Source: Coprobacillaceae bacterium
GTDB lineage: Bacteria > Bacillota_I > Bacilli_A > Erysipelotrichales > Coprobacillaceae
DNA length: 32,000 bases
Direction: 5' to 3'
NCBI GenBank assembly: GCA_963675515.1
Contig: OY776328.1
Location: 1,410,001 to 1,442,000 of the forward strand
The notes under the pieces were generated by a model. It ran no database searches, was not told the DNA's origin, and saw only the letters and a program-made list of their open reading frames with translations. The position numbers were made by a program, and so were the translations under genes. The first letter of the stretch is position 1. Each line of letters starts with the position of its first letter. This document shows positions 7,796 to 29,253 of the stretch, one piece after another.

Positions 7796-7817
7796 ATGTG
7801 CGAAGGGGTTGGTAAAT

Positions 7818-8939
7818 ATGAAACTTTTACGGATAAAGGCATACAATTACAGGAATTGTGCAGATGGTATATACCTTGATTTTGTTCCGGTTGCCAGAAA
7901 GACTGAAGAAGATAAGACCTATGAGTTCAATGAAGTGGGAGAATCATTGTATACATTCTCGACCACGGCAATCATCGGAAAAAATGCTTCAGGTAAGACA
8001 AGTGTTTTGAAGCTTATCGATAACGCTTATCGTATCCTAGGTTCTTTTCAATTGGAAGATGAATTGATATCAATCAGTGGTACCCGATTGGAGCTCACAT
8101 TTTTTCATGATGTAAAACTTTACCGCTACGAAGTTGAGCTGCAAAAGCAAGACAATCTGGGAAACAGTCTTTCGTTTGGAAATGAGAAGTTGTTCGTAAG
8201 CGACTATTTCAAGTCCAAAAGCAACAAACTGTTTGAACAGGATATTTACAAGGAAATGATAATTGATAAAGAGTTGCCTGACCATATCTCCAAATTATTC
8301 TATATTTTGAAAGAAAGAAAGAACTATTGTTACTACTATGATGATTTAAGCAGCAAGGATGATATCTATCGCTCAGTTTACCGGCTTTATGAAAACGGTC
8401 TGCTCAAGAAAAAATATTGGAAACATATATTGCATCTGTTTGACGACAACATTGTCAAATTGGAAGAAGTTAAGAACGACATCTTCAGGCTTGATTATTC
8501 GGGTAAATCGATGGAACTTAGTGCTAAGGAATTGTTCTACATTCTTTCGAGTGGAACTTCAAAGGGAATAGTGCTCTACACTAGGGCCATTCAGGCGCTT
8601 GTTGAGGGCAATACGTTTATCATCGATGAAATCGAAAATCACTTCCATAAGACTCTGGTTGAGAATCTTATCGTTCTTTTCAAGGACAAGGCTGTAAACA
8701 AAAAAGGAGCTAGCCTAATTTTTTCAACCCACTACTGTGAGTTGTTAGACATGTTCAATCGCAATGATAATATCTGGGTTGCCAAATCCATGGACAAGGT
8801 TTTCTTGACCAATATGTACCGGGATTATTCAATTCGAAATGATCTGTTGAAAAGCAAAAAATTCTATGAAGACAATTTCGGAACTGCGGTAAGTTACGAT
8901 TCGCTGATGAACCTGAAAAGAGAATTGATGGATGAATAA
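7818..8939 (+). CDS. AAA-type (ABC/AAA_21-like) ATPase, AbiLi/RloA/AriA-like
   Basis: ATG 7818 follows a GAAGGGG Shine-Dalgarno; the track ORF starts at TTG 7809. Walker A is GKNASGKTS, Walker B-like is FIIDEIENHFH, and STHY lies downstream. Confidence 0.75.
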   Translation: MKLLRIKAYNYRNCADGIYLDFVPVARKTEEDKTYEFNEVGESLYTFSTTAIIGKNASGKTSVLKLIDNAYRILGSFQLEDELISISGTRLELTFFHDVKLYRYEVELQKQDNLGNSLSFGNEKLFVSDYFKSKSNKLFEQDIYKEMIIDKELPDHISKLFYILKERKNYCYYYDDLSSKDDIYRSVYRLYENGLLKKKYWKHILHLFDDNIVKLEEVKNDIFRLDYSGKSMELSAKELFYILSSGTSKGIVLYTRAIQALVEGNTFIIDEIENHFHKTLVENLIVLFKDKAVNKKGASLIFSTHYCELLDMFNRNDNIWVAKSMDKVFLTNMYRDYSIRNDLLKSKKFYEDNFGTAVSYDSLMNLKRELMDE

Positions 8940-9657: not shown

Positions 9658-11463
9658 TTATTTCTGTCTTTGGATTCCTTTTTTAAGTTCTTTGATTTCT
9701 TTGGCCGTCAGTTGGCGCAAATATTTGGGCAGGTCCTTGTTGTATGGTAATAGCTTTCTGATTTCGACCTCATCACTTGGATCGATGCTTGGTAATCTTT
9801 CCAATACGTACTCCATGTACATGTATGCTGACAACCCATTCTCTTCGGCACTAAGTAGTAACGAGTAAATGATTGCCGCAGCTTGGGCTCCTTTGGGGCT
9901 GGTATAGAACTTGCAGCGATTTCTAGATACCACAAATGGTCTGATAACTCTCTCGGCGCTTGAATTGTCGAACGGAACTTTTGGATTATTGAATACTTCA
10001 CGGAATTCCTTCTCATGGTTCAATTCGTAATTAATTGCCTTGATCAACGTAGGTTTCATATTCACTTCAGGTAGCAAGATTATTTCTTTAAGGTACGCTA
10101 AAAAATTGTCATAAATAGGCTTTACGATATCATTTCGGCCCTTATGAACATACTCAAAATATTTAACTGGATTTTTGCCGTGTTTTGACTTAGCGGTCGT
10201 TTCAATCTTGTTTTTTGCTTCGAATATTTTCTGGTAATAACGATAGCACGTATATTCGTAACTTTTGCTTTTATCACTACCTTTTGGCAATACCTCAAGG
10301 GCTTTACGGAAATAACGGAAGGCGTGGACGTGGCAAAAACAGTTGGTGACATTATCAAGGGCCTCGTAGGCCCCATATGCATCGGTTACCAGGTAGTTCG
10401 AATAATCTCCGATGAAATCTTCGACAACACGTTTTGAGCGAGTGGGATCATAACGATATAAGATGATCGGCACATCATATTGGCAGGTTCTTACCACCCA
10501 CATGTAGGATTTACTTTGAGCCGTCTTGCCCTCTTCATTTAAAATTTGGGTCGTGGTTTCGTCGCAGTGTATCACATTCATGGCCAACAGATCCTTGCGC
10601 ATGCATTCGAACAGTAAACCCAGATGTACCGAGGCTTTAATCATCCAATTGGCCATATTTTGTCTAGGGATGACAACATCATTCTCCAGGAATCGTTTTT
10701 CCTGAGCGGCCAGGGGCAAACCCTTCAAATATTTCATATCCATTATATTCGCAATCAGCGAAGGTGAAGCAATGCTCCCCTTGATGACAGGTTGTCTGCC
10801 CGGAACTCTTTTATAAGATGACTTGCCGTCCAGGTTATGTTCCTGGCAAGCAACACATTCGTATACTGGAGTACGGTATATATTCATTTCCACTTTGGCT
10901 GGGGTATAGACGAGTTCCTTTCTTTCATCGTACTTTTTTATTTTCATGGTTGTACCACAAAGGTCGCAGACATCGAAATTTTCTGGTGTCGGCTCGTCAA
11001 TGATATTGGTTTTTAGGTGATCGTAGTTAATGTGCTTTTCTTTAGGGATTCTTACTTTTCTTTTGTACCCTTTGATTTCCTTGACTTCTATTTCTTCAGT
11101 CTCAGTTACCACACCAAAATCGATACCAATCAGACTGAAAAGGTCGGGACCTTGATTGTATTCTTTTATATTATTTCTCTGAGAGGAATATCTGGCGTTT
11201 TCTAATATCTTTATATATTCGTTTTTCTGTTGCAGTTCCAATTTGCGTTCGTTGATTTCACTAATCAGCTTCTTATTTTCGGCAATCAAAGTCTTTTCTT
11301 TAGCAGTGAATTTCTTTTCTTTGGCAGCCAACAGCTCATTTTCTTTGATAAGTTTAACTTTTGAAATACGGTCGGATTCGATTTTCTCACAAAGCTCTTT
11401 TTCTCTATTTTTGAAAGCAGCAATCAGCTCTTCTTTAGACATATTTTCCATCAGCTTTATCAT
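9658..11463 (-). CDS. tnpC: IS66-family transposase TnpC
   Basis: N-terminal coiled-coil/leucine-zipper region, a zinc-finger-like CDLCG...CVACQ, and a DDE-type core (HCDETT..., VTDAYGAY). The start is set at ATG 11463, after a GAGGTGG Shine-Dalgarno. Confidence 0.9.
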   Translation of the reverse strand: MIKLMENMSKEELIAAFKNREKELCEKIESDRISKVKLIKENELLAAKEKKFTAKEKTLIAENKKLISEINERKLELQQKNEYIKILENARYSSQRNNIKEYNQGPDLFSLIGIDFGVVTETEEIEVKEIKGYKRKVRIPKEKHINYDHLKTNIIDEPTPENFDVCDLCGTTMKIKKYDERKELVYTPAKVEMNIYRTPVYECVACQEHNLDGKSSYKRVPGRQPVIKGSIASPSLIANIMDMKYLKGLPLAAQEKRFLENDVVIPRQNMANWMIKASVHLGLLFECMRKDLLAMNVIHCDETTTQILNEEGKTAQSKSYMWVVRTCQYDVPIILYRYDPTRSKRVVEDFIGDYSNYLVTDAYGAYEALDNVTNCFCHVHAFRYFRKALEVLPKGSDKSKSYEYTCYRYYQKIFEAKNKIETTAKSKHGKNPVKYFEYVHKGRNDIVKPIYDNFLAYLKEIILLPEVNMKPTLIKAINYELNHEKEFREVFNNPKVPFDNSSAERVIRPFVVSRNRCKFYTSPKGAQAAAIIYSLLLSAEENGLSAYMYMEYVLERLPSIDPSDEVEIRKLLPYNKDLPKYLRQLTAKEIKELKKGIQRQK

Positions 11464-11608
11464 CGAAATCCACCTCGTTTCTCTTTGAGAGTATACCATA
11501 AAAATGGCTGTAAGTCTTGATTTTACGGCAATTTCTTAAAGATGTGAATAACTTAAAAAGATATAAAAGAAACCCACAAATTATTGTGAATTACTCCTAT
11601 ATCTTTCG

Positions 11609-19549: not shown

Positions 19550-21166
19550 ATGGCGTCGGTAAATTTATACAAAATTGAGAATGGCAATGAACCTGAAATA
19601 GATAATGTTTTAAGCGAGTTTGAACACATAGATTCAAAAAAAATAGTAAGTCAAGATAACTTAGTAGTTGAATTCGAACTTTATATTATCGATAATTACA
19701 ATAAGAAGGTGATAAATTGGAATTGGATAGTAAGAGAATTCATTGAGGATGACATATATATTGAACCGGGTCCGATCGGGATATTAAAAATCACCAAGGA
19801 TGAAAATCTCTATGTTGTAACATTTGGTCATGCGTTTTTCAAAGTTGACAAGTATTGTGACCATGAATTTGGATTTGAGATTGCCAAAAGATTGGACTAT
19901 TTAGAAATCAGGACAACTACATTGTCATCGCCACATTCCAAACGTAATAAATCAATTAGCACATACATAGATTATAATGAATTGGAATTTGATAGTGGAG
20001 AATCTTTTTCGAAAATAAAGGTAAAAGTAAAAACGCCGGATGATGATTTGTTTAAACCATCTGTTGAAATAGGCAGTTCAGTTAAATTTAACGTAACGAA
20101 TGGTAATCTGGAGACAATAGGTGAGTTGGTTTGTTATATTGAGAATATATTAGAACGGAAAGAAAAATATCAAATACCAATATTCACCAGAGTAAAAGAC
20201 CAAGAAACTATAAATCAACTCGAGTCAAGCCTAAAAGAAGCGACAATTGATGATATGTTCAAGATCAGTATTTCAGAGTTAGATATAATTGGAGCAAATG
20301 AGATATTTAATCATAATGATGACGAATATGAGATTCATTTCGGTCGGAAAAGCAAGAATGTAATTGGACTTACGATTGACGATGTTAAAGCTTTTTGCGA
20401 CGAATATGCGATAGATGTAGCAGAACACCTGTTTGATGTTAAAATTAAAATGTTTCAAGATGAACAGGTAATTGTCAATTCAAAAGTGCATGATTTGATT
20501 GATTTTACAAACGATGAGATGCGTTGTTTGTTATCAAAGGGACGGTGGTACAACTACAATGATGATTACATTAACTATCTTAACGATTCGATTTTAGAAA
20601 TAGGTTGTTTTTATGTACCTGAATACGATTTTTCGGAAGAAAAACATTTGGGATATTTAGAAGACAAATATATAGAATTGCAATTTACGTCTGATTACAA
20701 AGACTTGCCTAAAGAGAAGGCGATTTCTAAATTGAAGAAGAAATATTATGCAGAATATGTTTTTAATGAATTGATGGTAAAAGAGGGATATAAGAACTAT
20801 GATCGTGATTTGTCATCATTTCCGGGATCTGGTTCAAAAATTGAATTGATGGACCTTTATAAAGATAAAACGATGTTTGCTGTGAAGATGGGGAATTCGT
20901 CAGGAAAGTTGACGTATGTCTTTGAACAGTCGCTAATCTCACTTAAGAAATATAAACATAGTAAGAAATCTGATTTACCAAAAGTAGATTTCATAGCTGT
21001 ATGGCTGGTACTGGAAAGAAAGAATGTATTACCTAACACGGAAGATGGCCAGCCCGATTTAAGAGAGTTAGAAATGCTGATGTTAAAAAACAAAATGGAT
21101 AGTTGGAAAAAAGAAGTCAGATTATCAGGATATACCCCAATAATATATATAAACTATAAAAAATAG
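19550..21166 (+). CDS. Hypothetical 538-aa protein, possibly DUF6119/TIGR04141 (sporadically distributed) family
   Basis: GAGGCGGGGG Shine-Dalgarno. VVTFGHAFFKVDKYCDHEFGFEIAKRL and the C-terminal ELMDLYKDKTMFAVKMGNSSGKLTYVFEQSLISL resemble my memory of the family motifs TFGHG...DFGL and D-x(n)-VK...S..LSHLF.Q. The gene is visibly more AT-rich than its neighbours. Confidence 0.6.
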   Translation: MASVNLYKIENGNEPEIDNVLSEFEHIDSKKIVSQDNLVVEFELYIIDNYNKKVINWNWIVREFIEDDIYIEPGPIGILKITKDENLYVVTFGHAFFKVDKYCDHEFGFEIAKRLDYLEIRTTTLSSPHSKRNKSISTYIDYNELEFDSGESFSKIKVKVKTPDDDLFKPSVEIGSSVKFNVTNGNLETIGELVCYIENILERKEKYQIPIFTRVKDQETINQLESSLKEATIDDMFKISISELDIIGANEIFNHNDDEYEIHFGRKSKNVIGLTIDDVKAFCDEYAIDVAEHLFDVKIKMFQDEQVIVNSKVHDLIDFTNDEMRCLLSKGRWYNYNDDYINYLNDSILEIGCFYVPEYDFSEEKHLGYLEDKYIELQFTSDYKDLPKEKAISKLKKKYYAEYVFNELMVKEGYKNYDRDLSSFPGSGSKIELMDLYKDKTMFAVKMGNSSGKLTYVFEQSLISLKKYKHSKKSDLPKVDFIAVWLVLERKNVLPNTEDGQPDLRELEMLMLKNKMDSWKKEVRLSGYTPIIYINYKK

Positions 21167-21365: not shown

Positions 21366-21632
21366 ATGAAGGTTACGGTATATGGAACTGATCTTTGCAG
21401 TGAGACAATGAAGGCTTTGGTTGAGTTGGAGGCGGCAAATGCCGACTTTGAATTCAAGAACTTCACCAAAGAATTAAGTGTCCTGAAGGAATTCCTGCAC
21501 GAGCGGGATTCCAATGAGATGTTCGATCAGGCCAAGAAGGAAATGCGGATCGGGATTCCTTTTTTCGTACTTGAAGACGGAAGCAAGACCCACTCGCTCA
21601 ACCAGGTCTTGAAGGCCATCGGTAAAAAGTAG
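21366..21632 (+). CDS. Glutaredoxin/NrdH-like thioredoxin-fold protein (single Cys in place of CxxC)
   Basis: 88 aa. KVTVYGTDLCSET plus GIPFFVLEDGS fit the small glutaredoxin-like layout. AGGAGG Shine-Dalgarno. Confidence 0.5.
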   Translation: MKVTVYGTDLCSETMKALVELEAANADFEFKNFTKELSVLKEFLHERDSNEMFDQAKKEMRIGIPFFVLEDGSKTHSLNQVLKAIGKK

Positions 21633-21776
21633 AGAGCAATCTTAAACCTACCCCGCCAATTGCCTTAAGGTAGCCATCAACCTTTGGTGTTTTCAGCAAT
21701 TGTTTCATGGTAGGGCGGTCTGAACTCTGATATCACGACACCTTCCCAGGGAACAGTTTTCCTGACCGGGACCATT

Positions 21777-21798
21777 GCTGCCAAAAGGCAGCGCTTTT
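21777..21798 (+). terminator. Terminator-like hairpin immediately upstream of the intron 5' end
   Basis: gctgcc-aaaa-ggcagc followed by GCTTTT. The T-tract is cut short by GTGCG at 21799. Confidence 0.5.
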
Positions 21799-22442
21799 GT
21801 GCGACAGGCAGTCGCTTAGATGTCATGTATGCAGGTATATGGCATTTTCCTTTTATAAATGAGTTCCTGTAATAGTTCGCTATCAATACAGTAAACATCA
21901 TGGAATTGGGAAACCCTGTAGGTGAAAATCCTATCCCGTGCGCACTGGTGCTATTCGGGAAATCTAGTCTAGGGCATAATCGTGAGGTTGTGTCTGAAGG
22001 AGACGCAGTAGTCGAGAGACCTGTAGATGAGTTGACAGGCCGAAACGAAAAGTGAATCACATGTTGCGGCAGTGGAGAATGTGACGACGTTGCGAAAAAT
22101 GCGGAAGTCTATTCACGACATATTCTAAGAACCAGTCGAATATGCCGGCACTCCATTGTGAAGGTGATTGGCATGTCAACAAGGGCGTAGTTGATGACCC
22201 TGTGAGACCTCTTCATCCACCGAAAGGATAGCCATCTATAAGAGTCATTCGAAGTGATGGTTATATGAAGAGGAGTCAGACAATCTCATAGTAGCGAAGT
22301 AGTCATGTGACCAAACGCATGATGAAGCGAAGGGGATTGACCTTTTACAATTCTTACTTTATTTAATCGTAATGGTAAGAATTACGGTACTTAGGTACAA
22401 ACGAATTCAAAGAACGATAAATAGAAAGAGAGGTTTGAAATT

Positions 22443-23867
22443 ATGAATGAACCGATGAGATTGAAGTGGCATTCACTGTACGGACAAATACTCCAGGACA
22501 GGAAAATACTAGAAGCATGGAAACAGGTTAAAGCTAATCATGGAAGTGGTGGAATTGATGGGATAACCATTGAGCGATTCATGCAACATGAACAAGACAA
22601 CCTGGACAAGCTGTTAGATGAACTGAAATTGAAGGGATATAGACCAACCCCTGTAAGGCGAGTATATATACCTAAGAAAAACGGAAAGAAAAGACCATTG
22701 GGAATACCAATAGTCAAGGATCGGATAGTTCAGCAGGTGTTGTACAATATTCTTTCCCCAAAATATGAGGATGGAATATTTCATCCTCGTTCAGTTGGGT
22801 ATCGGCCGAAACGTGGTGTCGATACTGCGATGCAAATTATCATCAAGAACGTAGAGGAAGGAAATAACTGGATATACGATTGTGATATCAAAGGATTCTT
22901 TGACAACATTCCCCACAAGAAGTTGATGAAGGTGTTGAACAAATGTATCGCCGACGGTACTGTTCTTGACTTGATTTGGTCATGGTTAAAAGCTGGTTAC
23001 ATGGAAGATGGAAAGCATATGCAAAGTAGAAGTGGAACCCCGCAGGGCGGGGTCATTTCACCACTACTGTCTAACATCTACCTAAATGAACTGGATTGGA
23101 AGCTCAGCGAATCTAACATTGAATTCGTGCGTTATGCCGATGATTTTCTCCTGTTTGCGAAAACAGAAGAAGAAATCGAAAGAGCTGGTAAAATCGCCAA
23201 AGAAGTACTACATTCGTTAGGACTTGAGATGGCTATGGATAAAACCAAAGTGGTGGACTTTAAAAATGATGATTTCACATTTCTTGGATTTGACTTCAAG
23301 CACTGGAGGAAAAACAAGAGGGGTAATGATTACTATTTCATAGTTCCCACAGACAAATCACTCAAAGATTTCAAAAAGAAAATCAAGGACAAGACGCAAA
23401 GAAAGTGGACTTTTTCCCAAGATAAATGGGTAGCCATGCTTAATCCGATTATAGTTGGTAAAGTAAATTACTATCTCAATGTCTATAAGGCGTTGACAAT
23501 ATTCAAAAAGCATAACATCAAAACCCATTGTAATATCAAAATAATGGGTGGGATGCTCAATAGAATCGATCAGTATATTCGCCAAAGATTGAGAATGTGC
23601 ATGTTGCATAAACATCCGACAATCAGGAAAGCGTTTGGAATGACGGTCAAATGGAATATTGCATTCTTTGCGATGATTGGCTTGAAGCCTGCAAACTGGC
23701 ATTATTTCAATACCATGTATGGATATCCCATTGAGCTGTATGTAAAAAGACAGCAATATGGCAACAAGATAGAACATGCGAAAAGGAAAGACCGTGATAG
23801 GAAAAACGGCATGAATAGGTACTCGAAAGAGAGAAATAAGAAAATAGCCTACTCGTTTAGCAAGTAG
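22443..23867 (+). CDS. Group II intron reverse transcriptase/maturase (no HNH endonuclease domain seen)
   Basis: 474 aa. RT motifs include RPTPVRRVYIPKKNGKKRPLGIPIVKDRIVQQ, GTPQGGVISPLLSNIYL and YADDFLLF. A maturase X-like region follows, then a basic tail without Cys/His HNH motifs. Confidence 0.95.
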   Translation: MNEPMRLKWHSLYGQILQDRKILEAWKQVKANHGSGGIDGITIERFMQHEQDNLDKLLDELKLKGYRPTPVRRVYIPKKNGKKRPLGIPIVKDRIVQQVLYNILSPKYEDGIFHPRSVGYRPKRGVDTAMQIIIKNVEEGNNWIYDCDIKGFFDNIPHKKLMKVLNKCIADGTVLDLIWSWLKAGYMEDGKHMQSRSGTPQGGVISPLLSNIYLNELDWKLSESNIEFVRYADDFLLFAKTEEEIERAGKIAKEVLHSLGLEMAMDKTKVVDFKNDDFTFLGFDFKHWRKNKRGNDYYFIVPTDKSLKDFKKKIKDKTQRKWTFSQDKWVAMLNPIIVGKVNYYLNVYKALTIFKKHNIKTHCNIKIMGGMLNRIDQYIRQRLRMCMLHKHPTIRKAFGMTVKWNIAFFAMIGLKPANWHYFNTMYGYPIELYVKRQQYGNKIEHAKRKDRDRKNGMNRYSKERNKKIAYSFSK

Positions 23868-23905
23868 ACTACAATCATTCGTAAAATCAAATTCAGTAAA
23901 TTGGT

Positions 23906-23936
23906 AAGCTGTATGCGTTAATAATGCATGTGCAGT
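23906..23936 (+). ncRNA. Group II intron domain V-like hairpin
   Basis: AAGCUGUAU-GCGUU-AAU-AAUGC-AU-GUGCAGU shows the AGC triad, a two-nt bulge and G-U pairs in the canonical positions. The last two basal pairs are missing unless 29069-29070 (UU) is joined. Confidence 0.55.
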
Positions 23937-23966
23937 GGTGTTATCCCGATATCGGGATAACACCAC
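23935..23966. repeat. Perfect 32-bp palindrome GTGGTGTTATCCCGATATCGGGATAACACCAC
   Basis: Read directly from the sequence. It can be read as 11-bp arms, a 6-bp spacer (GATATC) and 11-bp arms, which is the layout of a tyrosine-recombinase core site. It shares the TTATCCCGA half-site with the RIT inverted repeats. Confidence 0.9.
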
Positions 23967-24047
23967 TTATACCGACTTTTGGATTATCCCGACAAATATG
24001 TATTTTTGAGGGATAGTCCTTTTTTGTATTATTAAAAGTCGGGATAA
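23965..24047. repeat. RIT terminal inverted repeat (left)
   Basis: ACTTATACCGACTTTTGGATTATCCCGACAAATATG...AAAAGTCGGGATAA is identical, by eye, to the reverse complement of 28986-29068. Confidence 0.9.
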
Positions 24048-24048
24048 C

Positions 24049-25098
24049 TCATATCAATCCATAGAGCCTTTTAATCAGTTCTTCATCATTTTCAAAATCC
24101 AGATTGTATTTATTAGAAATATTTATTAAGGGGCTAATTGCTTCTGTAGCCTGCTCAATTGCCTGTTTTTTCATTTCTAATGTTGCCTGCGCATAAAATT
24201 CCATTGTTGTAGAAACTTGCGCATGTCCAAGCCATTCGGAAATAAGTGGTAGCGGCATTCCACCATGATATAAATGCATGGCTCTAGAATGGCGGAACAT
24301 ATGCGGATAAATATGAATAGGTACTTCTTCATCTACATCATGAGCGGATGCACAATATTTATCAATAAATTTTTGAACAGCATCTGGCGACAGTTGACTG
24401 ATGATTTCCTTTCGTTTTGAACAAAAAACGAAGCTATCGTCTTTTGATTTTAAGTGAAATATCGATAGATAATTTTTCAAGTGGTTTATCGTTTTTTCCA
24501 TAATTGGGACTAATCTTACTTTACTGCCCTTTCCTGTTAGTTTCACGTACGGGACTTCACTAAATAGGAACAGGTCTCCAATTTTGAGATCCAAAATTTC
24601 CTGAATTCTAGCTCCAGTGTCATACATTAGTATCATGAAAACCAAATCCCGTATTCCTTTTTTTGTTTTTGTGTTTGGCTGCCTAAGTAATGTTTCTAAA
24701 ACATTTTCGGAGAAGTATTCAATCTGATTATTTTTGGACATCTTTTTCATAGGGACCGCAAGTAGTTCTTGGTAATATGCCATTAAAGAAATATTGCGAG
24801 ATGCAACATATTTGTAAAACGAACGAATTGCTGCCAGTTTCTGATTTCTAGTACTGCAAGACCACCCGGAATATTGCTCACCGTCATTCAAAAAATTATC
24901 AAGTAGCTTAACCGAGGTTATCTCGAAGCAAAAGTCAGATAGTTTGATTTTATTGGCGTTACATGCATATTTTAGAAATTGATTCATAGTGATTTTATAG
25001 GATTTGATTGTGTTGAAGCTGTTTCCTTTTTGTTTTGGTAAGAAAGACTCAAAATAATCTCTAATCATTTTGAAGAAACATAATGAATTTTCAGTCAT
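24049..25098 (-). CDS. ritC: Tyrosine recombinase, third gene of the trio
   Basis: R (TGARIQE), K (GKGSK), HxxR (HMFRHS), H (LGHAQ) and Y (EFYAQAT) are all present. The start is set at ATG 25098, overlapping the ritB stop as ATGACTGA. The stop abuts the left inverted repeat. Confidence 0.85.
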   Translation of the reverse strand: MTENSLCFFKMIRDYFESFLPKQKGNSFNTIKSYKITMNQFLKYACNANKIKLSDFCFEITSVKLLDNFLNDGEQYSGWSCSTRNQKLAAIRSFYKYVASRNISLMAYYQELLAVPMKKMSKNNQIEYFSENVLETLLRQPNTKTKKGIRDLVFMILMYDTGARIQEILDLKIGDLFLFSEVPYVKLTGKGSKVRLVPIMEKTINHLKNYLSIFHLKSKDDSFVFCSKRKEIISQLSPDAVQKFIDKYCASAHDVDEEVPIHIYPHMFRHSRAMHLYHGGMPLPLISEWLGHAQVSTTMEFYAQATLEMKKQAIEQATEAISPLINISNKYNLDFENDEELIKRLYGLI

Positions 25099-25474
25099 AC
25101 TTAGACACCTCAGGAATGATTGAGGAAAACCTTTCCCAATCAACTTCAGATGATTTAATTAATTCCTCTGGAAGTAAGTGAATATAATAAGCCGTGTCTT
25201 CGAAATTGGAATGACCCATATAGGCACTCATGTAGGGAAGCAATGAATATAAATCTTCACCTTCGTTTAAGAGTTTCATCATGACAGTTGTCGCCCAGCG
25301 ATGACGTAAATCGTATACTCTTACACGAGCTCTACCACCCTCGGGCTTTATCTCATCCCAAATCTTCAAGAATTCCGTCCTTAACCATTTTGAATGATAT
25401 GGAAGCCCGGTTGGAGATGGAAAAACATAATCAGTATTTGGAAATATTAACTTCATTTCATCGATATACTCGCG
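25091..25474 (-). pseudogene. ritB: Tyrosine recombinase, middle gene of the trio, C-terminal fragment (split by IS3)
   Basis: Encodes ...YIDEMKLIFPNTDYVFPS...YDLRHRWAT...MGHSNFEDTAYYIHLL, which carries the HxxR, H and Y catalytic residues. Confidence 0.85.
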
Positions 25475-25539
25475 GTATTTGTCAATATAGTTGACGCATT
25501 TTTTTGATTTTAATTATGCAGATTATTGAGTGTTTCATG

Positions 25540-26616
25540 TTAAACTTCGTTGATCAATAATTCGCTTTCTTTTGTCGGATTCAAGGCAACAGCTTCAATC
25601 CAAGCCCAATCTCTGGTTGATCCACTCCATCTTTCCGGGCTCCTCATTTTCGCTTCCGCATACACTTCTTTCCTTTTTTGCAGTATCGCAGCATCTTCGC
25701 CTCGATGACGACTGGCTGGTGTCACATATTTGATTCCGCTGTGTAAGTGAATTTCGTTGTACCAATGGACAAATTCATTGACCCAGCTTCTCGCGTGTGT
25801 GATCGATTCAAAACCGCTTGTAGGATACTTTGGCATATATTTTAATGTCTTGAACAACGATTCAGAATAAGGATTATCGTTGCTTACCCTTGGCCTAGAA
25901 AATGAGCTTTGCACACCAAGATTCTCGAGCATCCCCAGAAATGTAGCTGCCTTCATCGGGCCACCGTTATCGGAATGCAAGACCAGCGGCTCGCCATTGA
26001 TTCGTTCGCTTAAAAGTGCGCGTTGCATCAGTGTCGCGGAATATTCAGCATTTTCCGTCTCCCATACTTCGTATCCGACAATTTTGCGGCTGAAGATGTC
26101 CATTATCATGTATAGCTTGTAATAGATTCCTCGGATATCCTTGCGGTGCAACCAAGTGATGTCCCAACTCCAAACTTGGTTCGGTTTGATTGCAACATGG
26201 GTGGTGGCTTGTCTGTGGTGCTTCGGAGCTGTACGGCCGCGATGTTTCAATTGTTTTAATTCTCTTAATAGACGGTAGATGGTTGATTCTGAAGCAATAT
26301 AGATACCTTTGTCAGCCAGTAAAGGAACAATCTCAGCTGGCGTCAATTGCCTATAATCAGGACTGTTAACTATTTTCATGATAGCCTCGCGTTCTTCATT
26401 GCTGAGCTTATTCTTTGGAGGATTTAGCCGTGGTTCTTTACGCCTATCAGTGGAAATATTGTCTTCTTGAGTCCATCTTTCATACGTCCGTTTCGAAATC
26501 CCTGCCACCTTGCATGCCGGGATCAGGCGGGCACCATTGGCGTTCGCTTCTTTGATTAACGTAACGATTTCTTTGCGCAATTTGAGAGTCGTTAATCTTC
26601 CTCGTTGTCGTCCCAA
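25540..26616 (-). CDS. IS3-family transposase OrfB (DDE integrase core), expressed as an OrfAB fusion by -1 frameshifting
   Basis: DDE/rve motifs (WSWDITW, LHSDNGGPMKA, YNEIHLHSGIKYVTP). The frame is -1 relative to orfA and stays open back to the slippery site. Confidence 0.9.
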   Translation of the reverse strand: MGRQRGRLTTLKLRKEIVTLIKEANANGARLIPACKVAGISKRTYERWTQEDNISTDRRKEPRLNPPKNKLSNEEREAIMKIVNSPDYRQLTPAEIVPLLADKGIYIASESTIYRLLRELKQLKHRGRTAPKHHRQATTHVAIKPNQVWSWDITWLHRKDIRGIYYKLYMIMDIFSRKIVGYEVWETENAEYSATLMQRALLSERINGEPLVLHSDNGGPMKAATFLGMLENLGVQSSFSRPRVSNDNPYSESLFKTLKYMPKYPTSGFESITHARSWVNEFVHWYNEIHLHSGIKYVTPASRHRGEDAAILQKRKEVYAEAKMRSPERWSGSTRDWAWIEAVALNPTKESELLINEV

Positions 26617-27068
26617 ATTGCCTGGAGCTTTTTTTCAAGCACCAGTAATGCAGCTGCCTCGGCTAATGCCTTTTCCTTGCGGCGCAGTTGTTTTTCCAGC
26701 TCCTTGCGTTTTTGCCGTTCAGCTTGCAAGTCATCTTTTAGAGAATCGGACTTGGTTTCAGGGCTTAGGAATTCCTTCTTCCACTTAACCAACTCATCAG
26801 GATGAATCCCTTTTTTGCGGCAATATTCACCGAGCTCATGTTCATTGAGGGGAGCGGATTCGACGATGAAATGGAAACGTTGTTCCTTGTTGTAGCGTTC
26901 TTTGATTTTAGAAACTGAATGATTTTTGAGGTATCTTCTTTTCCAAGAATATAGTGTAGTCGTCTTGATGCCGGTTTCTTCAGCAATCTGGACAACGGTC
27001 TTGTTAAGCGGTGGTTCAACCTCACTGATGATCTTGATTTTTTCTTCTGTCGTATATGTTTTGGTCAT
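26592..27068 (-). CDS. IS3-family transposase OrfA (HTH plus leucine zipper)
   Basis: 158 aa with an AAGGAG Shine-Dalgarno. HTH-like VVQIAEETGIKTTTLYSWKRRY, and a coiled-coil C-terminus. Confidence 0.9.
   Translation of the reverse strand: MTKTYTTEEKIKIISEVEPPLNKTVVQIAEETGIKTTTLYSWKRRYLKNHSVSKIKERYNKEQRFHFIVESAPLNEHELGEYCRKKGIHPDELVKWKKEFLSPETKSDSLKDDLQAERQKRKELEKQLRRKEKALAEAAALLVLEKKLQAIWDDNEED
26628..26635 (-). promoter_or_regulatory. Programmed -1 ribosomal frameshift site A AAA AAG of the IS3 element
   Basis: The minus strand reads GAA AAA AAG in the orfA frame (LEKKLQ). orfB lies in the -1 frame. Confidence 0.8.
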
Positions 27069-27145
27069 GGCTAGGTCTCCTTGGTATACTTTTTACTAAG
27101 TATAATCTAAAACGTTCTATACGACAACTATCCTAACACAGGGGG

Positions 27146-27718
27146 CTCGCGCATCATATCTGTTACATCAACGGCCATTGGAATTAAACGTTCCTTATGA
27201 TTTTTGTTTTTTCTAATAAGTATAGTTCCATTATCCAAGTCCAAATCTTTTTTCATTATTTCACGACCTTCGTTTGGCCGAAGACCACAAAAGTATATCA
27301 ATCGATAGATTACAGATATGATTCTATTTTTAGCCGTCATAGGTTTGATATATTTTTTACTATCAGCCATTTCAAAAATGGTTTTAAGCTCCATGTTTGT
27401 GAATATATAAGGTACATATCTTGTGATTTTAGGTAAGAAATTCAAATCAAGTACAAAGTTGGAAGCTCCGTTCGCAAAAAGGTAAAGTGTAAATTGTCTT
27501 ATTGATGACATTCTAGATCGAAAACTGCACGCCTGCTCAGTTTTCCTTTGCACACACCAAGGCATGATCATTTCTTGAGTAAGCATTGTTTCACTGGGAA
27601 AATTATTCGTCAAGTATTTGGAAAAATCGTTAAGATACCAAGAAGTTGGTTGCAACGAATACCCTAAATCAATTCGATATTTAATCATGTCTGCGATATA
27701 ATCATATATGAATTTCAT
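27146..27718 (-). pseudogene. ritB: Tyrosine recombinase, middle gene of the trio, N-terminal fragment
   Basis: Starts with an ATGA overlap on the ritA stop (27715-27718). It contains the SAM-like N-domain and the first catalytic Arg (GLRPNEGRE). The native sequence ends at ...DMMRE, and the track ORF then reads a few IS-derived codons. Confidence 0.85.
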
Positions 27719-28944
27719 ATTCTACCACCAAGTGTTTCCATAGATAACGCACACTTTCTCAAACCCTCAACATCAAGTGAAATATATTGCTTAGTAGGTA
27801 TGACCGAATGGTGACCCAAGAGCTGTGCAATCATTGTAACCGGAACGCCGTTGATAATAAGTTGAGTCCCTAACATCCGCCTAATAGAGTGGAAAGTGTT
27901 CCCGGTTTTAAGGGAGGGTTCAATTCCAGCCTTCAGTAGATACCTTCTAAAAAAAGAAGCGATAGAACAGCCGTCTTTAAGCCCCGTAAAAGGAGCTAAT
28001 GATCTTATGAAAACACTATTATCATCAGTTTTGGGTCTTCCATTTAGAATGTAGTCCGCAATTGCATTACAGACACTCTCAGTTAATGGCACTGTTAGGG
28101 GACTATTTGTTTTCCCTTGAACTATATTTAATTTGCGTTTTTTCCAATCAATATCTTCAAGCTGAATCCGTACTATATCTCCAGCTCTTAGCCCTGTCAT
28201 TGCTCCCAATATTATAATCGCATAATTTCTTTTTCCGGTAGGTGTCTCCCTATCAATTGAATTTAAAATTCCTACAAGATCAATAATATCTATTGGCGGA
28301 TATAATGCCCTGTCTCGTATTTTACCGAAGGAAACGATGGAGCTTATATCAAAATCAATCTTATTATTTCTATACAAATTAACTAAATATTTTTTCAGAC
28401 AAGTGAGTATCTTCTCCATGGATTTTGGGTTATCCTTAGAGATGATCTTAATAAATTCCACTATATCGCTAGTACTTATTAATTTCGGTTGCAAAATATC
28501 ATGATTGTTTAGAAAATTTGAAAATAAATATAGGATTCGCTCTTCAAATTGAAGGGTCCTAATAGATACTTCTCTATTTTTCAAATATTCTTTTATTGTG
28601 ATTTGGAACTCTGATGATATGGGGATTTCATTCTTAAATGTGAAAACTTTCCACTTGAAGGAACCGAAATCATTAAGTTCGGTAATCATTAAGACGCCAC
28701 GCACTCTTTTATTATAGGTGGTCCTACTAATAATTTTGTTTTGAAGTTGCGAAAGATAGAACTTTAGCAGTGAATCCATAATTTCCCGACTATAGTTTAT
28801 TTGATTTAAGTCAGAATATCTTTTCAAAATGGGGTTAAAGTAGCTGGATTCGTAGGCCTGAATGGTAAGTTCATTATAGCCTTGAGACTTCAGGTTATTT
28901 AAAGCAAGCTGAACTAATTCGTCGATACTATTCAAATTTTTCAT
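27715..28944 (-). CDS. ritA: Tyrosine recombinase, first gene of the trio
   Basis: 409 aa with an AGGAGG Shine-Dalgarno. Catalytic residues are R (GLRAGD), K (GKTN), HxxR (HSIRRM), H (LGHHS) and Y (KQYISLD). Confidence 0.9.
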   Translation of the reverse strand: MKNLNSIDELVQLALNNLKSQGYNELTIQAYESSYFNPILKRYSDLNQINYSREIMDSLLKFYLSQLQNKIISRTTYNKRVRGVLMITELNDFGSFKWKVFTFKNEIPISSEFQITIKEYLKNREVSIRTLQFEERILYLFSNFLNNHDILQPKLISTSDIVEFIKIISKDNPKSMEKILTCLKKYLVNLYRNNKIDFDISSIVSFGKIRDRALYPPIDIIDLVGILNSIDRETPTGKRNYAIIILGAMTGLRAGDIVRIQLEDIDWKKRKLNIVQGKTNSPLTVPLTESVCNAIADYILNGRPKTDDNSVFIRSLAPFTGLKDGCSIASFFRRYLLKAGIEPSLKTGNTFHSIRRMLGTQLIINGVPVTMIAQLLGHHSVIPTKQYISLDVEGLRKCALSMETLGGRI

Positions 28945-28985
28945 TTCAAACTACCTCCTAGCTACATTATAGACTGAAAATAAAA

Positions 28986-29068
28986 TTATCCCGACTTTTA
29001 ATAATACAAAAAAGGACTATCCCTCAAAAATACATATTTGTCGGGATAATCCAAAAGTCGGTATAAGT
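28986..29068. repeat. RIT terminal inverted repeat (right)
   Basis: Perfect reverse complement of 23965-24047. Confidence 0.9.
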
Positions 29069-29104
29069 TTGATAAGGGGCTAGCTTGGAAACAAGTTAGC
29101 CTAC
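29069..29104 (+). other. Possible displaced 3' end of the group II intron (last 2 nt of domain V, linker, domain VI-like hairpin ending CUAC)
   Basis: UU at 29069-29070 would complete the basal pairs of domain V. The hairpin ggctagctt-ggaaac-aagttagcc (29078-29101) is followed by UAC. The downstream TTTCTTGTTT would complete the T-tract of the hairpin at 21777-21798. Confidence 0.35.
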
Positions 29105-29253
29105 TTTCTTGTTTACCTGATCAATATATCTGGCCGGGATGATATTATCGCAATGATTTCACCGAATTATTTAACGGATGGAACACAAAATCCAATCAAG
29201 AACACATATGGGGATTAATAAACCTTTAAAATTGTAAGCGTTTACCGATTTTG

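What the first reader, a model, noticed from the sequence alone, without database searches (positions are those of the whole stretch)
21799..29104. Three-deep nesting of selfish elements: IS3 inside a RIT element inside a group II intron
1. The IS3 element (25475-27145) splits the middle recombinase gene. Removing it and one copy of CTCGCG restores an intact reading frame.
2. The domain V-like hairpin ends at 23936 with its two basal pairs unpaired. The two nucleotides right after the right RIT repeat (UU, 29069-29070) would complete them.
3. A domain VI-like hairpin ending in CUAC follows at 29078-29104.
4. Joining 21798 to 29105 rebuilds a hairpin followed by GCTTTTTTTCTTGTTT, a proper intrinsic terminator downstream of the glutaredoxin-like gene.
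Together these suggest the RIT element (about 3.46 kb without the IS) landed between domains V and VI of the intron, probably killing splicing. The alternative is that the intron ends within 23937-23975 and the RIT element is merely adjacent.
Basis: partly seen in the sequence, partly recalled or inferred. Interest (0 to 1): 0.7.

Follow-up and report, generated by a model that had tools for sequence, protein, structure and literature searches.

The report
Recombinase-trio transposon that targets group II introns
The three-level nest is real (an insertion sequence inside a three-recombinase "RIT" transposon inside a group II intron), and the middle layer is not there by accident: relatives of this RIT element sit at exactly the same spot, between intron domains V and VI, in many unrelated bacteria, which gives a first sequence-level picture of how these little-understood elements choose their targets and integrate.

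Summary
All four observations hold. Ten intact copies of the same intron in a Coprobacillaceae genome read straight across the predicted joint. Deleting window 23937-29068 gives a 2174-nt intron, the same length as the intact copy and 88.5% identical. The alternative reading, that the intron ends before the RIT element, is refuted. Removing 1677 nt (the IS plus one CTCGCG) restores a 316-aa RitB that aligns without gaps to homologues.

The larger result is that the RIT position is systematic. Six of six RitA homologues (37-44% identity to the window's RitA) that I looked up without reference to introns lie beside a group II reverse transcriptase. These include isolate genomes of Anaerobacillus and Succinivibrio. 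Every junction I read has one architecture: domain V 3' strand, a 6-bp overlap, a 20-nt palindrome, a 6-bp overlap, then the inverted repeat and ritABC, the second inverted repeat, a 6-bp overlap, and J5/6 plus domain VI. The overlap always starts 4 nt before the end of domain V. One and the same RitA protein occurs in different introns and in both orientations. Other subclades sit in IS66, IS3 and IS110 transposase genes.

I infer site-specific integration of a circular form through two mirror-image core sites. The papers I could search list RIT target specificity and movement as untested.

The parts
21366..21632 (+).
   Evidence: ORF listed. No Pfam family found, so its function is unverified.
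21776..21798 (+). Intrinsic-terminator hairpin (21776-21793) plus the first part of the T-tract (CTTTT). This is the 5' exon end and the intron homing site.
   Evidence: Terminator-like site. Nine of ten homologous introns follow a hairpin plus T-run.
21799..23936 (+). Group II intron, 5' portion: GTGCGAC 5' end, domains I-IV, and domain V lacking its last 2 nt
   Evidence: The 5' end is identical to L001-L010. Weak D1D4-4 match at 29 bits, 21916-22050. 88.5% identity to the intact L002 intron.
22443..23867 (+). Intron-encoded protein, 474 aa: reverse transcriptase plus maturase, with no endonuclease domain detected
   Evidence: Pfam RVT_1 5e-42 and GIIM 2e-10. Full-length 85-88% identity to ten copies in OY780959.1.
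23904..23936 (+). Domain V, truncated. Its two basal pairs need U29069 and U29070.
   Evidence: Alignment to intact homologues and fold of the joined sequence. A C-G to U-A compensatory change relative to L002 is visible.
23935..23940 (.). Left overlap (O) GTGGTG at the attL-type junction. Only its first two bases (GT) match the intron.
   Evidence: Junction table. The intact intron has GTTTGA here.
23941..23960 (.). 20-nt palindrome XX' (TTATCCCGAT|ATCGGGATAA): two back-to-back recombinase-arm motifs that are part of the RIT element
   Evidence: Six copies of TTATCCCGA in the window against 0.2 expected. The exact 20-mer occurs in at least 120 metagenome contigs, nearly always beside RIT repeats.
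23961..23966 (.). Internal overlap O' CACCAC (reverse complement of GTGGTG). With X' and the first repeat motif it forms an intact inverted core site.
23965..24047 (.). RIT inverted repeat on the RitC side (83 nt), carrying the motifs TTATACCGAC, ATTATCCCGAC and GTCGGGATAA
   Evidence: the repeat finder pair I1, 100% complementary. Motif hits.
24049..25098 (-). ritC tyrosine recombinase. About 349 aa from the ATG at 25098; the listed ORF extends to a TTG at 25143. It overlaps ritB by 8 nt.
   Evidence: Pfam Phage_integrase 5e-31 plus SAM-like N-terminal domains. 46-52% identity to RitC of intron-nested elements.
25091..25474 (-). ritB, C-terminal part (carries the HxxR, H and Y catalytic residues)
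25475..27145 (-). IS3-family insertion sequence (1671 nt): orfA 26592-27068 and orfB 25540-26616, flanked by CTCGCG at 25469-25474 and 27146-27151
   Evidence: Pfam HTH_Tnp_1, rve, rve_3 and HTH_32. Direct repeat and imperfect terminal inverted repeats.
27152..27718 (-). ritB, N-terminal part. It overlaps ritA by 4 nt.
27715..28944 (-). ritA tyrosine recombinase, 409 aa
   Evidence: Pfam Phage_integrase 3e-27. 244 homologues at E<=1e-20, many on contigs of about 3.3-3.5 kb.
28986..29068 (.). RIT inverted repeat on the RitA side (83 nt)
29067..29072 (.). Right overlap GTTTGA at the attR-type junction: the intron's own sequence, i.e. the last 4 nt of domain V plus 2 nt of J5/6
29069..29104 (+). 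Group II intron, 3' portion: last 2 nt of domain V, J5/6, and the domain VI hairpin ending in CUAC
   Evidence: Colinear with intact homologues. The equivalent stretch of L002 is covered by RF00029.
29105..29120 (+). 3' exon: the rest of the terminator T-tract (TTTCTTGTTT...)
   Evidence: Homologous copies have TTTATT... at this position.

Best explanation
Shown: the region is a four-layer stack.
- A group II intron without an endonuclease domain has homed just after the terminator hairpin of a small gene, which is the behaviour of bacterial class C introns.
- A 3455-bp RIT element (ritA-ritB-ritC with 83-bp perfect inverted repeats) has integrated 2 nt inside the 3' end of intron domain V.
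- An IS3-family element has then split ritB.

Shown by comparison: the RIT position is the regular target of this RIT lineage. In every related copy I examined the order is: domain V 3' strand, 6-bp overlap O, the palindrome X|X', O', inverted repeat, ritABC, inverted repeat, O, then J5/6 and domain VI. O always begins 4 nt before the end of domain V.

Inferred mechanism:
- The element excises as a circle. In the circle, inverted repeat - O - XX' - O' - inverted repeat forms one long palindrome that contains two mirror-image core sites. Each core site is a repeat-end arm, a 6-bp overlap, and an X arm.
- The Rit tyrosine recombinases recombine either core with the intron DNA site (consensus about CCGYAnGYMCG | GTKSTG | TGAGRGG).
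- Using either core explains why the genes occur in both orientations while the palindrome always stays on the domain V side.
- Heterology in O is tolerated and is resolved by replication, as with Tn916 or Tn554 coupling sequences. In the window, attL therefore carries the element's GTGGTG and attR carries the intron's GTTTGA.
- The window's overlap GTGGTG is the perfect match for the commonest host introns (domain V ending ...CGGUGGU). This intron (...GCAGUUU) was therefore probably a secondary target.

Inferred consequences: the insertion falls between the G.U and A-U pairs of the catalytic-triad stem, so the intron is probably splicing-dead. The RIT element is itself disabled by the IS in ritB.
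For: Nesting:
- Ten intact intron homologues read across the joint.
- The excised intron is 2174 nt, the same as L002, at 88.5% identity.
- RF00029 is found in intact L002 but not in the window.
- RitB is restored and aligns without gaps.

RIT identity:
- Three same-strand Phage_integrase ORFs of 409, 316 and about 349 aa with 4-nt and 8-nt overlaps.
- 83-nt perfect inverted repeats.

Systematic targeting:
- The 20-nt palindrome occurs in at least 120 contigs, mostly flanked on one side by RIT repeats. At least 17 of them abut a domain V hairpin.
- A group II RT lies upstream of the palindrome in L054, L058, L059, L083, L089, L105 and L128.
- RitA homologues chosen without regard to the palindrome (P0013, P0076, P0009, P0007, P0070, P0091) are all next to RVT_1+GIIM genes.
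- Base-level junctions are identical in register in the window, L058, L089, L118, L132, L142, L152, L153 and L155.
- Rfam D1-D4 matches at gathering score lie upstream (D1D4-3 in eight loci, D1D4-5 in L054, D1D4-4 in L071/L130), and none of these split introns matches RF00029.

Independent mobility:
- The identical RitA protein (P0076) sits in two introns whose RTs are 40% identical, in opposite orientations (L141, L142).
- Their imperfect XX' flips together with the element.

Circle:
- L135 closes on itself (30-nt terminal overlap, 3454-nt unit) across repeat - GTGGTG - XX' - CAGAAC - repeat.
- L113 shows the same junction as a palindrome with arms of at least 42 nt.

Overlap behaviour:
- O is identical on both sides in L058, L089, L152, L153, L155, L025, L034 and L042.
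- O is of the element type at attL in the window and L142, and at attR in L118, L119 and L050.
Against: - No experiment supports any step; every mechanistic step is inferred from junction sequences.
- The target arms (domain V 3' strand; J5/6 plus domain VI) do not resemble the element arms X and Y. How the target is recognised is therefore open.
- The circular-closing contig could also arise from head-to-head rearranged copies such as L147.
- Mobilome sequencing in Sphingobium failed to find circular RIT junctions (PMC5737581).
- The window's overlap shares only 2 of 6 bases with its target, which most tyrosine recombinases would not tolerate.
- I could not read Ricker et al. 2013, which may already describe parts of this.
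Confidence: 0.75

Rival explanations
1. Chance nesting. The RIT element inserts more or less at random, or merely prefers mobile-DNA-rich regions, and it happened to land near the 3' end of this intron.
For: Nested mobile elements are common. The window also holds IS256-like and IS66 transposases. The window's overlap matches the target at only 2 of 6 positions.
Against: The same register (overlap starting 4 nt before the domain V 3' end) is seen in nine complete and more than ten partial copies, in introns with 34-62% RT identity and three Rfam D1-D4 types, including two isolate genomes of different phyla. Six of six independent RitA look-ups are intron-nested.
Confidence: 0.03
2. Old cargo rather than a hunter. 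A RIT element entered an ancestral intron once. The composite has since diverged and spread by intron retrohoming, with the long inverted repeats pairing in the RNA so that domains V and VI still come together.
For: The position is conserved. In cognate insertions domain V stays intact because O is duplicated (L058, L152, L153). The 83-nt repeats would close the insert as a stem in RNA (inference).
Against: An identical RitA protein occurs in two different introns and in both orientations. Ten close homologues of the window intron lack any RIT. Repeats at 100% identity and an intact IEP point to a recent event. Element-only contigs of about 3.4 kb are numerous. Other subclades with the same palindrome sit in IS66, IS3 and IS110 transposase genes.
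Confidence: 0.07
3. Single-strand hairpin mechanism. The long terminal palindrome folds in single-stranded DNA into a hairpin that reconstitutes one core site (as with integron attC or CTX phage attP). It recombines with the domain V DNA hairpin by exchange of one strand pair, and replication resolves the product. No double-stranded circle is needed.
For: The repeat-O-XX'-O'-repeat arrangement is a perfect palindrome of up to about 194 nt. The target abuts a very stable conserved hairpin. Sphingobium RIT DNA resisted exonuclease but gave no circular junction reads, and its authors proposed hairpin intermediates (PMC5737581). The different O at attL and attR fits replication-resolved exchange.
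Against: Duplication of a 6-bp overlap on both sides (L058, L152, L153 and others) is the classical signature of double-stranded exchange with staggered cuts. A circular-closing contig exists. Non-intron targets in transposase coding sequence show no obvious hairpin.
Confidence: 0.15

Closest known systems
RIT (recombinase in trio) elements: Van Houdt et al. 2009/2012 (PMC3414803); Ricker et al. 2013
   Same: Three adjacent same-strand tyrosine recombinase genes of about 410, 315 and 350 aa with 4-8 bp overlaps. Total length about 3.5 kb. Terminal inverted repeats with an overlapping palindrome. Occasional location inside a transposase gene (all stated in PMC3414803; met in the window).
   Different: The papers I could search list target specificity and movement as untested (PMC10214605 Table 1), and the repeat search of 2012 gave 'no convincing result'. 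Here the ends resolve into repeat arm, 6-bp overlap and X arm, the target is a defined register at domain V / J5/6 of group II introns, and the host is a low-GC Bacillota-like genome.
Tn554, SE elements and GInts (multi-recombinase tyrosine transposons); Tn916 coupling sequences
   Same: Several tyrosine recombinases act together, there are no classical transposon target duplications, and a 6-bp flank or overlap sequence is carried between sites (PMC10214605). The unequal O at attL and attR in the window, L142, L118 and L119 behaves the same way.
   Different: No TnpC, Srap or Tfp-like fourth gene. Long perfect inverted repeats and a central palindrome giving two mirror-image cores. The target is another mobile element rather than att554 or a chromosomal gene end.
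Bacterial class C (IIC) group II introns
   Same: Insertion directly after an intrinsic terminator hairpin within the T-tract, and an IEP without an endonuclease domain.
   Different: Class assignment was not tested phylogenetically or structurally. The Rfam D1D4-4 match is below threshold at 29 bits against 49. The predicted domain VI hairpin shows no bulged branch-point A.
Mobile elements specialised on other mobile elements (twintrons; attC-targeting IIC introns; IS1111-attC; IS elements targeting REP sequences)
   Same: These use a conserved sequence or structure of one selfish element as a safe landing site for another (my own background knowledge).
   Different: In the searchable literature I found no tyrosine-recombinase transposon described with a group II intron ribozyme domain as its att site.
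IS3-family insertion sequences
   Same: orfA (HTH_Tnp_1) and an overlapping orfB (rve) on one strand, about 1.67 kb, with imperfect terminal inverted repeats.
   Different: The 6-bp direct repeat is longer than the 3-5 bp usual for the family (my recollection), and the outermost 5-7 nt of the two ends do not pair.

Membership tests
RIT element | Three adjacent, unidirectional tyrosine recombinase genes (RitA about 410 aa, RitB about 315 aa, RitC about 350 aa) with short overlaps of 4-8 bp | tested here: met
   ORFs of 409 aa, 316 aa (after IS removal) and about 349 aa, all on the minus strand, all matching Phage_integrase. Overlaps are 4 nt (27715-27718) and 8 nt (25091-25098).
RIT element | Catalytic R...HxxR...H/W...Y residues present in all three proteins | tested here: met
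   Read directly from the translations. RitA: TGLRAGD, FHSIRR, LGHHS...QYIS. RitB: CGLRPNEGRE, LRHRWA, MGHSN...YYIH. RitC: TGARIQE, FRHSRA, LGHAQ...EFYA. The Pfam catalytic domain is covered in each.
RIT element | About 3.5 kb unit bounded by terminal inverted repeats with an adjoining palindrome | tested here: met
   3455 bp without the IS. 83-nt inverted repeats at 100%. 34-nt perfect palindrome at 23934-23967 (pair I7).
RIT element | Homology to the RitA, RitB and RitC subfamilies specifically (Famint1/5/2; Smyshlyaev subgroups) | not tested
   Only Pfam Phage_integrase and reciprocal similarity to other trios were used. No comparison was made with the Cupriavidus archetype.
Group II intron | 5' GUGYG and 3' AY ends | tested here: met
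   GTGCG at 21799 and ...CUAC at 29104, both identical in ten homologues.
Group II intron | Domain V (about 34 nt, AGC triad, 2-nt bulge) followed by domain VI | tested here: met
   Met only after in-silico excision. The joined sequence folds as domain V plus domain VI. The homologous stretch of L002 reaches RF00029 at 42 bits against 40. The native window has no RF00029 match.
Group II intron | Domains I-IV ribozyme core | tested here: inconclusive
   RF02003 D1D4-4 scores 29.1 bits (gathering 49) at 21916-22050 and RF01998 scores 22.8 bits.
Group II intron | Intron-encoded RT with maturase (X) domain in domain IV | tested here: met
   RVT_1 5e-42 and GIIM 2e-10.
Group II intron | Bulged branch-point adenosine in domain VI | tested here: not met
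   The minimum-free-energy fold of domain VI is a continuous 11-bp helix with no bulge. The homologues have the same sequence pattern. This may mean hydrolytic splicing or an alternative pairing.
Bacterial class C (IIC) intron | Homing site immediately downstream of an intrinsic terminator stem-loop | tested here: met
   Window hairpin 21776-21793 plus CTTTT. Nine of ten homologous copies follow a hairpin plus T-run.
Bacterial class C (IIC) intron | IEP phylogeny and RNA structure of class C | not tested
   No reference class C sequences were compared.
IS3 family | orfA (HTH) and orfB (DDE rve), overlapping, joined by frameshift | tested here: met
   HTH_Tnp_1 in 26592-27068. rve and rve_3 in 25540-26616. 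The ORFs overlap by 25 nt. The slippery site was not examined.
IS3 family | Terminal inverted repeats ending TG...CA and a 3-5 bp target duplication | tested here: inconclusive
   The inverted repeats align from TGT... inward, but 5-7 outer nt are unpaired, and the duplication is 6 bp. No other copy was found in plasmids to fix the ends.

The most novel reading that the evidence does not exclude
RIT elements of this clade are obligate hyperparasites of group II introns. Their att site is the DNA encoding the most conserved part of the ribozyme, and the 6-bp overlap is tuned to the host intron's domain V end. Cognate insertions leave domain V intact, and the long inverted repeats close the insert as an RNA stem. 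The intron could therefore still splice and retrohome, carrying the RIT element to new terminator sites and new hosts. The 26-nt solo palindromes seen in some introns (L057, L066, L071/L130) would be excision scars that act as landing pads. More broadly, RIT subclades would each specialise on a conserved motif of another mobile element, such as the IS66 'DNN' codons, IS3 or IS110.
Probability: 0.15. Interest if true: 0.85.

Novelty: new variant of a known kind. Interest (0 to 1): 0.62.

Why it matters
RIT elements have been catalogued since 2009, yet their att sites, target choice and mode of movement are still listed as untested (PMC10214605, 2023).

- These junctions supply a concrete and falsifiable model: arm motifs, a 6-bp overlap, a palindromic circle junction with two symmetric cores, and a target of about 25 bp. 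The model can be tested with simple PCR and plasmid-integration assays.
- The data show a tyrosine-recombinase transposon using the DNA of a ribozyme's catalytic domain as its landing site, so one selfish element systematically disables or rides on another.
- This bears on why many bacterial group II introns are found broken. It also affects intron annotation, because domain V-VI covariance models fail on these copies.
- A recombinase system whose specificity seems partly set by a 6-bp overlap could be of interest for retargeting.

Tried and rejected
- Rfam at gathering threshold over the whole window gave nothing. This is explained by the split of domains V and VI and a divergent domain I.
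- Megablast of the intron against plasmids matched only a 50-nt conserved RT stretch in Bacillus plasmids. Megablast of the IS against plasmids gave no match, so the IS ends could not be fixed by comparison.
- A scan of viral contigs for the RIT end found nothing.
- Exact-protein look-ups for the window's RitA and its 95%-identical relative P0001 were not on record. I therefore could not examine the same element in a sister genome.
- My first in-silico RitB join removed 1676 nt instead of 1677 and gave a frameshift. This was corrected.
- A crude hairpin rule for recognising domain V gave false positives in GC-rich contigs at score 11. I counted only scores of 12 or more, or loci with RT or Rfam support.
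- I considered that the 28-nt palindrome is intron sequence, or an independent small element that the RIT then targeted. I rejected this because intact introns lack it, it is joined to both repeats in L135 and L113, and an imperfect version flips together with the element.
- I considered similarity between the element arms and the target arms as the basis of recognition and found none.
I substituted the intact homologue L002.
- Ricker et al. 2013 could not be opened.

Full report
**1. What is in the window**

On the plus strand an 88-aa ORF (21366-21632) has no Pfam match. It is followed by a terminator-like hairpin at 21776-21793 and CTTTT. At 21799 the sequence GTGCGACAGGCAG begins. A 474-aa ORF (22443-23867) carries RVT_1 (5e-42) and the group II maturase domain GIIM (2e-10) and has no endonuclease domain.

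Downstream, on the minus strand, lie three Phage_integrase ORFs:
- 27715-28944 (409 aa).
- A middle gene in two pieces, 27128-27718 and 25091-25456.
- 24049-25143.

Between the two pieces of the middle gene are an HTH_Tnp_1 ORF and an rve/rve_3 ORF, which is IS3-family content. An 83-nt perfect inverted repeat (23965-24047 and 28986-29068) brackets the recombinase block. A 34-nt perfect palindrome sits at 23934-23967.

**2. Test of the nesting model**

The intron-encoded protein found ten loci in one Coprobacillaceae genome (OY780959.1; L001-L010) at 85-88% identity over all 474 residues. All ten have the same 5' end (hairpin, (C)TTTT | GTGCGACAGGCAG; nine of ten). All ten have an uninterrupted 3' end...GGTAAGCCGTATGCGTTAATAGCGCATGTGCGGT TTGATAAGGGGCTAGCTTAGAAATAAGTTAGCCTAC | TTTATT.

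The window reads ...GCATGTGCAGT (23936), then 5132 nt of foreign DNA, then TTGATAAGGGGCTAGCTTGGAAACAAGTTAGCCTAC (29069-29104) | TTTCTTG. Removing 23937-29068 gives an intron of 2174 nt. This is exactly the length of the L002 copy, at 88.5% identity, and includes a compensatory C-G to U-A change in domain V.

In L002 this stretch reaches Rfam RF00029 (domains V-VI) at 42 bits against a gathering score of 40. The native window has no RF00029 match even at E<=10.

The ligated exons restore the T-tract only. The hairpin itself was never interrupted.

**3. The IS layer**

CTCGCG flanks the IS at 25469-25474 and 27146-27151. Deleting 25475-27151 (1677 nt) gives a 316-aa RitB. It aligns without a single gap to RitB of four other elements at 43-46% identity, straight across the joint.

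With that repair the trio is 409, 316 and about 349 aa, with 4-nt and 8-nt gene overlaps. These are the figures given for RIT elements in PMC3414803. The IS terminal repeats pair only from a few bases inside the ends, and the 6-bp duplication is unusually long. No second copy was found to settle the ends.

**4. The extra palindrome led somewhere**

The motif TTATCCCGA occurs six times in the window, all in the RIT ends, against 0.2 expected by chance. Two copies form the 20-nt palindrome TTATCCCGAT|ATCGGGATAA at 23941-23960. This lies outside the 83-nt repeats and on one side only.

In nearly all of them the layout is:
flank - S6 - X|X' - S6' - repeat (TTATnCCGA N8 TTATnCCGA ...) ... ritABC ... 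repeat' - S6'' - flank.
- S6' is the reverse complement of S6 or of S6''.
- S6 often equals S6''.
- The unit is about 3.36-3.47 kb.

I read S6 as the overlap (O) of a tyrosine-recombinase core site whose arms are the repeat end (Y') and X.

**5. The flank is repeatedly a group II intron domain V**

In at least 17 of the palindrome loci the non-RIT flank is a domain V hairpin ending at the overlap. Seven of these have a group II RT upstream by tblastn.

To avoid circularity I then looked up RitA homologues without using the palindrome. All six sit next to an RVT_1+GIIM gene:

| RitA homologue | Source |
|---|---|
| P0013 | metagenome contigs |
| P0076 | metagenome contigs |
| P0009 | metagenome contigs |
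| P0007 | metagenome contigs |
| P0070 | Anaerobacillus alkalilacustris isolate genome |
| P0091 | Succinivibrio dextrinosolvens isolate genome |

Base-level junctions are the same in the window, L058, L089, L118, L132, L142, L152, L153 and L155:
- The domain V 3' strand comes up to ...CG.
- The 6-bp overlap follows (GTGGTG, GTTCTG, GTGCTG, GATCTG and others). Its first four bases are the last four of domain V.
- Then come XX', O' and the repeat.
- At the far end the order is repeat', O, then (T/G/C)GAG(A/G)GG..., which is J5/6 and domain VI ending CUAC.
- The palindrome is on the domain V side in nine of nine complete copies.
- The genes point either way.

Rfam confirms bona fide introns upstream:
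- D1D4-3 at 55-158 bits in eight loci.
- D1D4-5 in L054.
- D1D4-4 in L071 and L130.

None of these split introns gives RF00029.

The host RTs are only 34-62% identical to one another and to the window's.

**6. The RIT element moves on its own**

- One RitA protein sequence (P0076) occurs in L141 and L142. Their introns differ (RTs 40% identical) and the element lies in opposite orientations.
- In this element XX' is imperfect (TTATTTCGAC|TTCGTAATAA), and it is inverted in L141 relative to L142. This is exactly what is expected if both insertions derive from one circle cut at either of two mirror-image cores.
- L135 is a Logan contig that closes on itself (30-nt terminal overlap, 3454-nt unit) through repeat' - GTGGTG - XX' - CAGAAC - repeat.
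- L113 shows the same junction as a palindrome with arms of at least 42 nt.
- Some copies are flanked by two domain V sides with a palindrome at both ends (L147, L053, L068). Another is flanked by two domain VI sides with no palindrome (L143). These look like reciprocal inversion products between copies.
- Some introns carry only O-XX'-O, a 26-nt insert (L057, L066, L071/L130). These are possible excision scars.

**7. Mechanism proposed**

Steps marked as inferred are not shown by any experiment.

- Excision to a circle is inferred; L135 and L113 support it.
- Recombination occurs between a core (Y'-O-X) and the intron site B-O-B'. This is inferred from the duplicated overlap.
- The polarity of O fixes the palindrome next to B, which is domain V. 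The choice of core fixes gene orientation. This is consistent with nine of nine copies and with the L141/L142 pair.
- Where O differs between element and target, the two junctions carry different overlaps. The window and L142 have the element's O at attL. L118, L119 and L050 have it at attR. This is what replication of a heteroduplex overlap would give, as for Tn916 and Tn554 coupling sequences. The parallel rests on my background knowledge and on PMC10214605.
- The window's element carries GTGGTG, a perfect match to the commonest host introns (...CGGUGGU G). The window intron offers GTTTGA, so this looks like a secondary-site event.
- Because the element's overlap replaced the intron's at attL, domain V lost its two basal pairs. 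The break lies inside the catalytic-triad stem. Loss of splicing is likely but untested.
- Perfect repeats, an intact IEP and an exact IS duplication all suggest recent events.

**8. Beyond introns**

Other subclades with the same palindrome interrupt other transposase genes. The reconstructed targets are:
- IS66-family transposases, often at the conserved ...PF(D/T)NN... codons (L034, L042, L119, L120).
- An IS3-family gene (L090).
- An IS110-family gene (L077).

PMC3414803 had already noted a RIT element inside a Tn6049 transposase gene.

**9. Comparison with the literature**

The papers I could search describe RIT elements as:
- Elements with mobilome coverage but no circular junction reads (PMC5737581).
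- Elements whose target specificity and movement are 'NT', not tested (PMC10214605).

Searches combining RIT or tyrosine-recombinase terms with group II introns returned nothing relevant.

**10. Verdict**

As a single nest it would be a curiosity. Its value is that it exposes a conserved, site-specific relationship between a RIT lineage and group II introns, together with a testable att-site model. I rate it as a new variant of a known kind of element, with interest about 0.6.

Noticed in passing
L071 1540-4100 (the same element in L130, reverse strand): A group II intron (Rfam D1D4-4 at 89 bits, 1612-1754; domain V at about 4010-4045) lies just after an RNase J-like gene. The roughly 2.3 kb between domains I-III and domain V hold four ORFs (175, 185, 104 and 162 aa) instead of a reverse transcriptase. 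The window's RT found no tblastn match there. It also carries a solo 26-nt RIT palindrome between domains V and VI.
   Followed up: partly
L057, L066, L022/L130/L071, L122, L054: These introns carry only O-XX'-O (a 26-nt insert) between domains V and VI, with no RIT element. They may be excision scars or landing pads. Among the 124 palindromes classified (123 in the metagenome contigs plus the window's own), about 32 are 'solo'.
   Followed up: partly
L147, L053, L068 (palindrome at both ends, flanks inverted); L143 (domain VI sides at both ends, no palindrome): These look like reciprocal products of inversion between two RIT copies in oppositely oriented targets. RIT elements may therefore drive rearrangements between their host elements.
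   Followed up: partly
L135 (3484 nt; 12 similar places not shown): This element-only contig has a 30-nt direct terminal overlap (k-1 for a k=31 assembly), so it closes into a 3454-nt circle through the predicted junction. Many RitA homologues sit on contigs of about 3.2-3.5 kb.
   Followed up: partly
L002 2540-4341: A second, different group II intron (D1D4-3 at 131 bits, D1D4-1, and RF00029 at 45.7 bits) lies about 1 kb upstream of the homologue of the window intron. The Coprobacillaceae genome holds at least ten copies of the latter.
   Followed up: no
L008 5300-5400: One of the ten homologous intron copies does not show the hairpin/TTTT|GTGCGAC junction at the expected offset. Its 5' end may be truncated or displaced.
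   Followed up: no
window 609-1808 (-), 9658-11499 (-), 7809-8939 (+), 19550-21166 (+): Further mobile or defence-like genes lie in the window: an IS256-type Mutator-family transposase, an IS66-family transposase, an AAA_21 (AbiEii-like) ATPase and a DUF6119 protein. They sit among sugar-utilisation genes (GH38 mannosidase, PRD/PTS regulator, RpiR).
   Followed up: partly
window 25469-25480 and 27138-27151: The IS3-family element has a 6-bp direct repeat (CTCGCG). The 5-7 outermost bases at its two ends do not pair with each other. Both features are unusual for the family, and the exact IS ends remain uncertain.
   Followed up: partly
window 29078-29104 and homologues: The predicted domain VI is a continuous 11-bp helix with a GAAA loop and no bulged adenosine. 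This intron family may splice by hydrolysis rather than branching.
   Followed up: no
L039, L048, L074, L082, L086 (GC-rich contigs): Here the palindrome and O' are followed by rve-type transposase coding sequence (...DNADNGSAF...) instead of a RIT repeat. This suggests recombination between the element's internal core and a pseudo-site in an IS gene.
   Followed up: no
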